A stretch of DNA of 64,000 bases, from the IMG/VR virus record IMGVR_UViG_3300013383_000248. One strand, 5' to 3'. This document shows, piece after piece, positions 42,709 through 42,783 of the stretch. The translations under genes were made by a program, and so were the position numbers. How positions within the stretch are numbered: position 1 is the first letter of the stretch; each line of letters starts with the position of its first letter. The DNA is from a virus. A model generated the notes under the pieces. It was not told the DNA's origin, did not search any database, and saw nothing but the letters and a program-made list of their open reading frames with translations.

Positions 42709-42783
42709 TGGCTCCGGGGTAGAGATTTGAACTCTAATATAGGGATTTAGAATCCCCGGTCCTGCCGATTGAACGACCCCGGC
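42709..42783 (-). tRNA. Suppressor tRNA with anticodon CUA (reads UAG); amino-acid identity presumably Gln
   Basis: GCCGGGGTCGTTCAATCGGCAGGACC-GGGGA-TTCTAAA-TCCCT-ATAT-TAGAGTTCAAATCTCTA-CCCCGGA-G-CCA. The anticodon loop TTCTAAA gives anticodon CUA. Positions 1 and 72 mismatch (G·A). Confidence 0.6.

What the first reader, a model, noticed from the sequence alone, without database searches (positions are those of the whole stretch)
42709..42783. Amber suppressor tRNA (anticodon CUA) and genome-wide TAG to Gln recoding
The tRNA has anticodon loop TTCTAAA, so it decodes UAG. Independently, in-frame TAGs fall on conserved Gln positions, for example YIG-TAG-S/T in four GIY-YIG endonucleases and KEH-TAG. 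They also stitch track fragments into single homologous proteins, including Sak4, endolysin, LAGLIDADG endonucleases, radical SAM enzymes and tail fibres. TAA and TGA still terminate conserved genes.
Basis: seen in the sequence. Interest (0 to 1): 0.8.

Follow-up and report, generated by a model that had tools for sequence, protein, structure and literature searches.

The report
Phage amber suppressor tRNA, TAG=Gln
This stretch of a ~190 kb gut-type phage genome carries its own tRNA that reads the stop codon TAG as glutamine, a known kind of phage "code 15"; what is less ordinary is that related phages hold three unrelated versions of this tRNA at the same site, two of them next to homing-endonuclease genes.

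Summary
ARAGORN and Rfam both call a canonical 75-nt tRNA with anticodon CUA at 42709-42783 (-). Treating TAG as sense raises long-ORF coverage of the coding strand from 43% to 80%; TGA-as-sense does nothing. Single Pfam/NCBIfam domains run across 2-6 in-frame TAGs. TAG means Gln: in two unrelated enzymes, TAG sites align with invariant or dominant Gln in distant homologs (90/90, 90/90, 129/150, 96/141, 75/109). In ~95% relatives, TAG's commonest replacement is CAA.

Recoding is not uniform. 48 genes carry 186 TAGs. About 21 genes (replication/topology enzymes, a regulator, an MVP-like/flotillin/DUF2828 block) have none (P~1e-38), and they stay TAG-free in every ortholog examined.

This is an already described phenomenon (Ivanova 2014 [from memory]; Borges 2021/22; Peters 2022), and the public gene calls for this genome already read through TAG. 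So it is a new member of a known kind.

Beyond the finding: the suppressor sits behind its own sigma-70-like promoter, a type shared with TAG-free genes. Close relatives carry three ~55%-identical CUA tRNA alleles in exactly the same slot, two linked to GIY-YIG genes. All have an unpaired 1:72 and G73 (0/39 other tRNAs have the mismatch).

The parts
42709..42783 (-). Amber suppressor tRNA(CUA), allele 'type A': loop UUCUAAA, G1.A72 unpaired, G73, CCA encoded
42890..42918 (-). Sigma-70-like promoter TTGAAA-N17-TATAAT, ~107 nt upstream of the suppressor tRNA; one of 7 exact copies, all on the coding strand
   Evidence: promoter and leader conserved in relatives
42784..42889 (-). Leader between promoter and tRNA; homologous to relatives right up to tRNA nucleotide 1
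41731..42684 (-). Free-standing GIY-YIG homing-endonuclease gene g47 (TTG start, RBS AAGGGGAGGA, TAG as codon 3), directly 3' of the suppressor tRNA; absent from relatives that carry tRNA allele B
44437..44511 (-). Cognate phage tRNA-Gln(UUG), A1-U72, G73; closest window tRNA to the suppressor (50/75 identical)
48162..49250 (-). g52 aldo/keto reductase + 4Fe-4S, 10 in-frame TAGs; TAG at residues 171 and 345 align with invariant Gln
54002..55288 (-). g58 CXXX-repeat-target radical SAM/SPASM maturase, 6 in-frame TAGs; three align with dominant Gln
24761..26059 (-). g31, paralogous radical SAM maturase, 6 TAGs; shares the CY-TAG-Q site with g58
2686..3669 (-). g04 Sak4-like AAA_24 ATPase, 3 TAGs; Pfam match 22-194 spans two of them
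18069..19088 (-). g24 endolysin (Amidase_2), 2 TAGs
38732..41323 (-). g46, 863-aa tail-fibre-like protein with 12 TAGs; orthologs keep 10-16 TAGs
57547..59670 (-). g63, glycine-rich (ALK_LTK_GRD) fibre-like protein, 9 TAGs
10538..12919 (-). g15 type II topoisomerase A-like subunit, 793 aa, 0 TAG (11.9 expected); example of the TAG-free class
30762..33233 (-). g39 MVP-shoulder/vault-like protein, 823 aa, 0 TAG, all 30 Gln codons are CAG; TAG-free in all orthologs down to 65% identity
26479..27861 (-). g33 flotillin/Band_7 protein, 460 aa, 0 TAG; TAG-free in all orthologs
14283..15812 (-). g18 GyrB-like exon 1 (0 TAG); interrupted by the TAG-rich GIY-YIG gene g17 (13430-14140, 5 TAGs); exon 2 lies at ~12861-13265

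Best explanation
The window is part of a ~190-195 kb tailed-phage genome that uses genetic code 15. The phage encodes a tRNA with anticodon CUA. C34 pairs only with G, so this tRNA reads UAG but not UAA or UGA. About 70% of the phage's genes contain in-frame UAG codons that stand for glutamine. In those genes UAG supplies 37% of Gln codons and largely takes the place of CAG. TAA and TGA remain the terminators. The steps from here on are inferred, not shown. The tRNA is probably transcribed by host RNA polymerase from its own sigma-70-type promoter, the same promoter type that precedes TAG-free genes, other tRNAs and the ROOL RNA. It is probably charged with Gln by the host's Gln-charging system. 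It carries the acceptor-end signature of tRNA-Gln (unpaired or weak 1:72 pair plus G73) and U35, and CUA amber suppressors are classically glutaminylated. Once abundant, it would out-compete host RF1 at UAG. A conserved set of TAG-free genes (DNA ligase, topoisomerase II subunits, RNase H, a transcriptional regulator, phosphoesterases, and the MVP-like/flotillin/DUF2828/SLH block) can be translated in the unmodified host. TAG-containing genes (tail fibres, endolysin, radical-SAM cluster, homing endonucleases, and also Sak4, DnaB and PhoH) need the suppressor. The suppressor gene is itself a swappable cassette. Closely related phages hold three unrelated CUA tRNA alleles between identical flanks, two of them joined to free-standing GIY-YIG homing-endonuclease genes. 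This points to endonuclease-driven allele replacement of the SegB type.
For: tRNA. Read-through: ORF coverage rises 0.43 to 0.80 only for TAG and only on the coding strand. The Aldo_ket_red match 14-246 spans 5 TAGs, AAA_24 spans 2 and GIY-YIG spans 2. TIGR04115 scores 400.8 bits (cutoff 350) across all 6 TAGs of g58. Gln identity. Real and conserved, not error: contigs from three other samples carry the same suppressor tRNA, and TAG-conserved sites far outnumber changes there. In ~95% relatives, 166 of 220 TAG comparisons are TAG=TAG. Two classes: 0 TAG among 183 Gln codons in the TAG-free genes against 37% elsewhere, P~8e-38. Class membership is conserved in every ortholog down to 54-68% identity. 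TAG positions are uniform along genes, KS p=0.21, so nothing suggests TAG is used as a terminator. Promoter: 7 exact TTGAAA-N17-TATAAT sites against 0.26 expected, all on the coding strand, preceding tRNA-Sup, tRNA-Thr, tRNA-Gln/Tyr, ROOL and three TAG-free ORFs. Cassette. Acceptor signature: 5 of 6 CUA tRNAs collected (every one from this clade, i.e. 3 of 3 independent alleles) have a 1:72 mismatch, against 0 of 39 other tRNAs, Fisher p=5e-6, and all clade suppressors have G73. Literature: the same phenomenon and model in Borges et al.; proteomic proof of TAG=Gln in crAss-like phages; SegB, a GIY-YIG enzyme in the T4 tRNA cluster, drives inheritance of the tRNA region and recognises the T-psi-C stem-loop.
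Against: No expression, aminoacylation or peptide data exist for this phage. Timing (early versus late) is inferred only from gene function and promoter type, and some replication or recombination genes (Sak4, DnaB, PhoH) do contain TAG, so the split is not a clean early/late one. Only 3 protein-coding genes follow the exact promoter, so the promoter/TAG-free link is statistically weak (about p=0.03). Other E. coli GlnRS identity elements (G2-C71, G3-C70, G36) are absent from the suppressors, and the host and its Gln-charging route (GlnRS or GluRS/GatCAB) are unknown. The rest of the genome (~130 kb) could not be read, so release-factor or synthetase genes were not assessed. Homing is inferred from presence/absence polymorphism, and no cleavage site is known.
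Confidence: 0.9

Rival explanations
1. The CUA tRNA is a pyrrolysine tRNA, as ARAGORN labels it, and TAG encodes Pyl, with one of the window's radical-SAM enzymes acting as PylB.
For: ARAGORN prints 'tRNA-Pyl' for any cta anticodon. There are four radical-SAM genes in the window.
Against: The tRNA has a canonical shape: 5-bp anticodon stem, 8-nt D-loop with GG, TTCAAAT T-loop, and two bases between the acceptor and D stems. tRNA-Pyl is known for a 6-bp anticodon stem, a tiny D-loop and a 3-nt variable loop (established knowledge). The radical-SAM genes match RiPP maturase models (TIGR04115 and SPASM families), and no PylB model appears in the lists. TAG sites align with invariant Gln.
Confidence: 0.01
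2. TAG is read through, but as an amino acid other than Gln (for example Glu, Lys, Tyr, Trp or Leu), or ambiguously.
For: At poorly conserved TAG sites the homologs show E, K, N or L. The anticodon alone does not fix the charged amino acid.
Against: Every TAG site that falls in a conserved column is a Gln column: 90/90, 90/90, 129/150, 96/141, 75/109. CAA is the top substitution partner despite needing two base changes. The acceptor end has the tRNA-Gln signature shared with the phage's own tRNA-Gln(UUG).
Confidence: 0.03
3. The TAG-free gene class does not reflect temporal code switching. It reflects other forces: high expression that selects against an inefficiently decoded codon, or recent acquisition from a standard-code source.
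For: A subset of TAG-free genes (g33, g38, g39, g41, g44, g49) has higher GC3 and uses CAG almost exclusively for Gln, unlike the rest of the genome. TAG occurs in some replication or recombination genes (g02 DnaB, g04 Sak4, g28 PhoH).
Against: Other TAG-free genes (ligase g13, topoisomerase g15/g18, RNase H g19, phosphoesterases g34/g36) have the genome's usual AT-rich, CAA-preferring usage and still have no TAG. TAG-free status is maintained across orthologs down to 54-68% identity, while TAG sites turn over freely in other genes. The exact promoter class precedes only TAG-free ORFs and RNAs. HEGs inside TAG-free genes are TAG-rich, as Borges et al. reported.
Confidence: 0.3
4. The host itself reads UAG as Gln, so the phage merely matches its host's code and the tRNA is a supplementary isoacceptor.
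For: The host is unknown. Phages of code-25 bacteria do match their hosts.
Against: No bacterium with code 15 is known (established knowledge; Borges et al. predict standard-code hosts). Strong conserved selection against TAG in one gene class would make no sense if UAG were always a sense codon.
Confidence: 0.03
5. The in-frame TAGs are assembly or sequencing errors or pseudogenisation, and the tRNA is incidental.
For: None beyond the fragmented look of the genes under code 11.
Against: Independent assemblies from other samples carry the same suppressor tRNA and largely the same in-frame TAGs. Relatives keep similar TAG counts per gene. Only TAG, never TGA or TAA, interrupts conserved domains.
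Confidence: 0.005

Closest known systems
Code-15 (TAG->Gln) recoded phages of gut microbiomes: crAss-like, Lak, and the 'gemstone' clades of Borges et al. (bioRxiv 10.1101/2021.08.26.457843); proteomically validated by Peters et al. 2022 (PMC9523058)
   Same: Phage-encoded CUA suppressor tRNA; in-frame TAG at Gln positions; structural and lysis genes recoded; a standard-code subset of genes; variable recoding of replication genes; intron or homing endonucleases inside unrecoded genes preferentially recoded; large genome (~190 kb, in the size range of the large gemstone clades).
   Different: No DNA-level relative in GenBank phages, and the best topoisomerase match is below 40% aa identity. Clade membership (which gemstone clade, or none) could not be tested. 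Not described in the papers I read: three non-homologous suppressor alleles in one slot, their linkage to GIY-YIG genes, the universal 1:72 mismatch with G73, and the promoter class shared with TAG-free genes.
Phassvirus / phAss-1 group (Babkin et al. 2023, PMC10607447)
   Same: Human-gut Caudoviricetes with TAG in many ORFs and suppressor tRNA genes.
   Different: The phAss-1 genome is 136 kb with three suppressor tRNA genes. No nucleotide similarity to this window was detected in the phage collection.
E. coli supE (glnV) amber suppressor and GlnRS identity rules (established knowledge: Rould 1989; Jahn, Rogers & Soll 1991; su+3 mischarging mutants)
   Same: CUA anticodon on a tRNA with G73 and a weak or open 1:72 pair, the feature GlnRS exploits by unpairing the acceptor end; U35 is retained.
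   Different: The acceptor stem is C2-G71/C3-G70 (alleles A and B), not G2-C71/G3-C70. 1:72 is a true mismatch (G.A, U.U, U.C) rather than U-A. The host synthetase is unknown.
T4 SegB, a free-standing GIY-YIG homing endonuclease in the tRNA gene cluster (Brok-Volchanskaya et al. 2008, PMC2330249)
   Same: A GIY-YIG gene lies next to tRNA genes. Related phages lack it and differ in the neighbouring tRNA genes. Homing co-converts the flanking tRNA region. SegB recognises the T-psi-C stem-loop, and allele C here has an aberrant T-loop.
   Different: Here the affected tRNA is the code-switch suppressor itself. Two different GIY-YIG genes (44% identical over the catalytic domain) sit on opposite sides of two different alleles. 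No cleavage or cross data exist.

Membership tests
Code-15 recoded phage (TAG->Gln) | In-frame TAG codons inside conserved protein domains; gene calls are restored by reading TAG as sense | tested here: met
   Coverage 0.43 to 0.80. Pfam/NCBIfam domains span 2-6 TAGs.
Code-15 recoded phage (TAG->Gln) | TAG positions align with glutamine in homologs | tested here: met
   g52: 90/90 Q at two sites. g58: 129/150, 96/141, 75/109 Q. TAG<->CAA is the top substitution.
Code-15 recoded phage (TAG->Gln) | Phage-encoded suppressor tRNA with anticodon CUA | tested here: met
   Also found in relatives.
Code-15 recoded phage (TAG->Gln) | TAA and TGA retained as terminators | tested here: met
   TGA-as-sense gives no gain. 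All 69 genes end in TAA (55) or TGA (14).
Code-15 recoded phage (TAG->Gln) | A subset of genes compatible with the standard code, with structural and lysis genes recoded | tested here: met
   About 21 TAG-free genes, P~1e-38, conserved in orthologs. Tail fibres and the endolysin are recoded.
Code-15 recoded phage (TAG->Gln) | Temporal switch: recoded genes translated only after the suppressor is deployed | not testable with these tools
   Needs infection time-course data. Only promoter type and gene function could be examined.
Code-15 recoded phage (TAG->Gln) | Peptide evidence for Gln at UAG | not testable with these tools
   No proteomics available. Shown for crAss-like phages only.
Code-15 recoded phage (TAG->Gln) | Accessory code-change genes (RF2, aminoacyl-tRNA synthetase); optional, present in a minority of such phages | not tested
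   None recognised among the window proteins I scanned with Pfam, PHROGs or NCBIfam (about 36 of 69) or in the precomputed Pfam hits for the ~22 kb around g39. The other ~130 kb of the genome could not be fetched.
Named clade of Borges et al. (Jade / Sapphire / Agate etc.) | Terminase phylogeny or ANI to clade representatives | not testable with these tools
   No terminase in the window and no reference sequences at hand. Only genome size (~190-195 kb) is compatible with the large clades.
tRNA-Pyl | 6-bp anticodon stem, 3-nt variable loop, very short D-loop lacking GG, one base between acceptor and D stems; pylS/pylBCD present | tested here: not met
   Canonical cloverleaf. No PylB-like match among the radical-SAM genes.
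tRNA-Gln acceptor identity (GlnRS-type) | G73 discriminator and weak or unpaired 1:72 | tested here: met
   Alleles A (G.A), B (U.U) and C (U.C) all have G73. 0 of 39 other tRNAs are mismatched. The phage tRNA-Gln(UUG) genes have A-U or G.U plus G73.
tRNA-Gln acceptor identity (GlnRS-type) | G2-C71, G3-C70 and G36 of E. coli tRNA-Gln | tested here: not met
   Alleles A and B have C2-G71 and C3-G70. Position 36 is A, as any amber suppressor must have.
tRNA-Gln acceptor identity (GlnRS-type) | Actual charging with Gln by a host enzyme | not testable with these tools
   Needs biochemistry, and the host is unknown.
Free-standing GIY-YIG homing endonuclease at a tRNA locus (SegB-like) | GIY-YIG catalytic domain in an ORF outside any intron | tested here: met
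   Precomputed PF01541 hit on the product covering g47. g47 is 43-48% identical to the window's other GIY-YIG genes over ~90-100 residues. The L013 HEG is 40-44% identical to g17/g47.
Free-standing GIY-YIG homing endonuclease at a tRNA locus (SegB-like) | Presence/absence polymorphism with exact boundaries between otherwise homologous genomes, with the neighbouring marker co-replaced | tested here: met
   Flanks are mostly >90% identical to window 42784-42788 and from 41726-41728 (the 5' flank against L016 is 79% because of an indel). Between them lies tRNA-A+HEG, tRNA-B alone, or HEG'+tRNA-C.
Free-standing GIY-YIG homing endonuclease at a tRNA locus (SegB-like) | Site-specific cleavage of the endonuclease-free allele and biased inheritance in mixed infection | not testable with these tools
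   Experimental only.

The most novel reading that the evidence does not exclude
The code-switch tRNA is a contested, mobile cassette. Free-standing GIY-YIG homing endonucleases target the suppressor-tRNA slot and drive replacement of one suppressor allele by another unrelated one. Every allele that survives there must independently carry the same minimal Gln-acceptor signature: CUA, A37-A38, G73 and an unpaired 1:72. If so, this locus is a natural experiment that defines what a tRNA needs for a standard-code host to glutaminylate it and for it to beat RF1. It would also show that homing endonucleases shape the evolution of a phage's genetic code machinery.
Probability: 0.45. Interest if true: 0.6.

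Novelty: new member of a known kind. Interest (0 to 1): 0.42.

Why it matters
The finding as stated is a clean, well-supported example of an established phenomenon. It matters mainly for annotation, because standard code 11 halves the apparent coding density here. The extra observations have some value beyond that. Three sequence-unrelated suppressor tRNAs sit in one syntenic slot, all with an open 1:72 pair and G73. That gives a concrete, testable hypothesis for the open question raised by Borges et al.: how phage suppressors get charged with Gln by host enzymes. The linkage to homing endonucleases suggests how code-change machinery spreads and turns over between related phages. The shared promoter class offers a handle on when the suppressor is made.

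Tried and rejected
(2) Megablast of 20 kb, and blastn of the tRNA alone, against GenBank phages gave no relative, only a tRNA-Gln hit. (3) An exact search for the type-A anticodon arm found 0 hits in IMG/VR. It found 4 hits in JGI metagenomes, of which only one is a tRNA, and that one is unrelated outside the anticodon arm (G1-C72, A73). The origin of allele A is unresolved. (4) PDB comparisons of TAG-masked g04 and g58 were too distant to say anything about residue identity. (5) The second large homolog search (g58) returned only same-clade proteins already translated with code 15, so it gave no independent information on Gln; it only showed the clade is abundant. Some representatives may themselves come from recoded phages. 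(6) A sensitive Rfam scan found no group I/II intron at the HEG-interrupted genes, although the exon junctions clearly reconstitute conserved motifs. (7) Cluster look-up gave no names or accessions for the NCBI copies. (8) The pyrrolysine, sequencing-error and TGA-recoding readings were considered and rejected. (9) Walking to the rest of the genome was not possible, because only window proteins may be looked up.

Full report
OBSERVATION. ARAGORN finds six tRNA genes in the window, all on the minus strand. One is at exactly 42709-42783 with anticodon cta; 'tRNA-Pyl' is simply ARAGORN's label for that anticodon. Rfam's tRNA model scores it at 46.5 bits (gathering score 29, E=9e-7). The drawing and the MFE fold agree on a canonical cloverleaf. 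Its features are: acceptor stem GCCGGGG/CCCCGGA with G1.A72 unpaired, G73, encoded CCA, D-loop AATCGGCA, anticodon stem GGGGA/TCCCT, loop UUCUAAA, a 5-nt variable region and T-loop TTCAAAT.

READ-THROUGH IS REAL AND SPECIFIC TO TAG. GC skew is negative throughout, and essentially all genes lie on the minus strand. Stop-to-stop frames of at least 450 nt cover 42.9% of the minus strand under code 11. They cover 79.5% if TAG is sense and 43.8% if TGA is sense. TAA-as-sense inflates both strands (non-coding strand 6.6% to 57.9%) and is an AT-richness artefact. I curated 69 minus-strand genes under code 15. Single profile-HMM matches run straight across the TAGs. Aldo_ket_red 14-246 crosses five, AAA_24 22-194 crosses two, GIY-YIG 2-85 crosses two, ALK_LTK_GRD 30-288 crosses one, and Amidase_2 crosses one. 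TIGR04115 matches residues 27-393 of g58 across all six TAGs at 400.8 bits, above its curated cutoff of 350. Contigs carrying this genome were assembled independently from several samples, are 152-195 kb long, and carry the same suppressor tRNA. The gene calls stored for them already read through TAG, giving 863-aa, 432-aa and 293-aa products. TAG positions are spread uniformly along genes (KS p=0.21), so nothing suggests TAG ever serves as a terminator. All curated genes end in TAA (55) or TGA (14).

TAG MEANS GLUTAMINE. Four independent lines support this.
(i) I searched g52 (aldo/keto reductase with a ferredoxin domain, 10 TAGs) with TAG masked as X and aligned it to 120 homologs. Among the 90 distant ones (about 29-36% identity, several named by NCBI as bacterial aldo/keto reductases), the TAGs at residues 171 and 345 fall in columns that are Gln in 90/90. 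Pooled over all ten sites, Q is 25.6% against a 3.4% background.
(ii) I compared g58 (radical-SAM maturase, 6 TAGs) with 150 representatives of 50%-identity clusters. Three TAG sites are predominantly Gln (129/150, 96/141, 75/109). Pooled Q is 40.6% against 2.9%. One caveat: some representatives may themselves be recoded-phage proteins.
(iii) Against ~95%-identical relatives from IMG/VR, 166 of 220 TAG comparisons are TAG=TAG. The commonest change is TAG<->CAA (18), ahead of every single-nucleotide neighbour; Gln accounts for 21 of 54 changes.
(iv) In alignments of paralogs within the window, Q or TAG lies opposite TAG in 16 of 67 cases, against a 2.6% Q background.
YIG-TAG occurs in GIY-YIG genes g10, g17 and g42 (and in the unrelated g60), while g11 and g47 have CAA at that position. 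KEH-TAG is in g17.

RECODING IS BIMODAL. 48 genes carry 186 TAGs. In these genes TAG supplies 37% of Gln codons, CAA 55% and CAG only 7%. About 21 genes have no TAG among 183 Gln codons (P~8e-38) (g47 was reassigned afterwards because its true TTG start at 42684 puts a TAG at codon 3). The TAG-free genes are:
- DNA ligase g13;
- topoisomerase II subunits g15, g16 and g18;
- RNase H g19;
- a transcriptional regulator g06;
- two metallophosphoesterases and a NADAR protein;
- flotillin g33, the MVP-shoulder protein g39, DUF2828 g41/g43, and an SLH-domain protein g44;
- g49 and g61.
The TAG-containing genes include tail-fibre-like proteins, the endolysin, a radical-SAM/RiPP-like cluster and all homing endonucleases. 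They also include Sak4, a DnaB fragment and PhoH. TAG-free status is conserved in every ortholog examined, down to 54-68% identity. TAG-rich genes keep similar TAG counts while individual sites turn over. One TAG-free subset (g33, g38, g39, g41, g44, g49) has higher GC3 and uses CAG almost exclusively. The others share the genome's AT-rich, CAA-preferring usage, so codon-usage origin alone does not explain TAG avoidance.

HOW IT PROBABLY WORKS. Shown: the tRNA, the sense reading of TAG as Gln, and the two conserved gene classes.
Inferred, point 1: the tRNA has its own promoter. TTGAAA-N17-TATAAT occurs 7 times exactly (0.26 expected by chance; 0 of 100 shuffles reach 7), always on the coding strand, with an extended shared consensus. 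The sites precede tRNA-Thr, g49, tRNA-Gln/Tyr, ROOL, the suppressor (42918-42890, ~107 nt upstream), g43 and g06. That is only RNAs and TAG-free ORFs. This fits host-RNA-polymerase transcription of the suppressor together with the standard-code-readable genes. With only three ORFs, however, the association is weak.
Inferred, point 2: a host enzyme charges the tRNA with Gln. Every clade suppressor has G73 and an unpaired 1:72. The phage's own tRNA-Gln(UUG) genes have A-U or G.U at 1:72 and G73. None of the 39 other tRNAs collected has a 1:72 mismatch (Fisher p=5e-6; with three independent alleles, 3/3 against 0/39). From established knowledge, GlnRS opens the 1:72 pair, uses G73 and U35, and readily glutaminylates amber suppressors. 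Borges et al. make the same general point. Other E. coli identity elements (G2-C71, G3-C70) are not present, and the host is unknown.
Inferred, point 3: translation of TAG-containing genes depends on the suppressor out-competing RF1. This is the published temporal-switch model and was not testable here.

THE SUPPRESSOR LOCUS IS A THREE-ALLELE CASSETTE (beyond the original finding). In IMG/VR relatives the syntenic slot holds a different CUA tRNA, allele B (U1.U72). It is only 43/75 identical to the window's allele A, and it is conserved, with compensatory changes, in a 50%-identity relative. Two other relatives (L013, L025) have instead a ~0.9 kb insert. This carries a GIY-YIG gene followed by a third CUA tRNA, allele C (U1.C72, T-loop GGCAGCA). 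ARAGORN misses it, but Rfam scores it at 38.9 bits. The boundaries are exact. The promoter and leader are homologous up to window 42784-42788, and homology resumes at 41726-41728. Between these points the window has tRNA-A plus GIY-YIG g47, L016 has tRNA-B alone, and L013 has GIY-YIG' plus tRNA-C. The two endonucleases are only 44% identical over the catalytic domain. The closest precedent is T4 SegB, a GIY-YIG enzyme in the tRNA cluster that recognises the T-psi-C stem-loop and drives inheritance of the surrounding tRNA genes. On that analogy, allele C's odd T-loop could be self-immunity; this is speculation. The origin of allele A was not found.

COMPARISON WITH WHAT IS KNOWN. TAG->Gln recoding with phage suppressor tRNAs, a standard-code gene subset, and preferential recoding of structural, lysis and intron-endonuclease genes are all described by Borges et al.. 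Gln at UAG has been shown by proteomics in crAss-like phages, and another TAG-recoded gut phage group is described. Ivanova et al. 2014 is cited from my own knowledge. This phage has no DNA-level relative in GenBank phages, and its topoisomerase is below 40% identical to any record there. However, close relatives exist in IMG/VR and in many ENA/Logan assemblies. I could not test which named clade it belongs to. Verdict: a new member of a known kind. I did not find the cassette/identity observations in the papers I read, and I give them as the novel reading with moderate probability.

LIMITS. About 130 kb of the genome was out of reach, so release-factor and synthetase genes were not assessed. 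There are no expression or peptide data. The host is unknown; the SLH domain and the tRNA-Gln similarity to a Bacillus phage tRNA hint only weakly at Firmicutes.

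Noticed in passing
window 43647-44236 (-): Full-length ROOL RNA (RF03087, 320 bits) inside the tRNA island, with its own copy of the TTGAAA-N17-TATAAT promoter (44332-44304). It is conserved in four relatives. ROOL near phage tRNA islands is a known association (PMC12286853); here it lies ~860 nt upstream of the amber suppressor.
   Followed up: partly
L013 12608-12679 (+); also the reverse complement of L025 at ~1393-1467: A non-canonical CUA tRNA (allele C) with T-loop GGCAGCA and no GG in the D-loop. ARAGORN and Rfam's default filters miss it, but it scores 38.9 bits when searched locally. Suppressor tRNAs in recoded phages may be under-counted for this reason.
   Followed up: yes
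window 12861-15812; 20415-22996; 33775-36446; 532-2080; 6160-8411 (all -): At least five genes are interrupted by homing-endonuclease genes. They are GyrB-like (g18 | GIY-YIG g17 | g16, junction ...IIIMSDADV|DGAHIKNLF...), PhoH (g28 | LAGLIDADG g27 | g26), DUF2828 (g43 | GIY-YIG g42 | g41), DnaB (g02 | LAGLIDADG g01 | ...), and a GIY-YIG gene itself split by another GIY-YIG (g11 C-terminus | g10 | g09). Exon junctions rebuild conserved motifs, yet no Rfam group I/II intron model matches even at E<=0.05.
   Followed up: partly
window 23847-26059 and 54002-56887 (-): Two CXXX-repeat-target radical SAM/SPASM peptide maturases (g31 at 349.7 bits, g58 at 400.8 bits to TIGR04115) lie near Cys-rich CXXX-repeat proteins (g30, g61; also the Cys/Thr-rich g56). 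This looks like thioether-type modification of phage, possibly structural, proteins.
   Followed up: partly
window 46445-56122 (-): A very AT-rich block (GC 17-29%) of heavily recoded genes. It holds two further radical SAM/SPASM proteins (g54, g55; 9 and 12 TAGs), an aldo/keto reductase-ferredoxin fusion (g52), a nucleotidyltransferase-like protein (g57) and several unknowns. It resembles a biosynthetic cluster.
   Followed up: no
window 26479-37725 (-): A block of TAG-free, higher-GC, CAG-preferring genes that is unusual for a phage. It holds flotillin/Band_7 (g33), an 823-aa protein with a major-vault-protein shoulder domain (g39), DUF2828/DUF7788 (g41/g43) and an SLH-domain protein (g44). 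All 30 Gln codons of g39 are CAG.
   Followed up: partly
window 5186-5214, 36517-36545, 42890-42918, 44304-44332, 44553-44581, 46173-46201, 46420-46448 (-): Seven exact copies of an extended promoter-like motif (TTGAAAAWTTWAAAAAAWTAT..TATAAT followed by ATATATA), against 0.26 expected by chance. They lie only before RNAs and TAG-free ORFs.
   Followed up: yes
L016 10887-10999; also L012, L013, L014, L015: A RAGATH-33 RNA (RF03102, 127-139 bits) lies just after tRNA-Leu and upstream of tRNA-Gly in L016, and at the corresponding site in the other relatives. The corresponding ~250 nt are deleted in the window, where tRNA-Leu and tRNA-Gly are 7 nt apart.
   Followed up: partly
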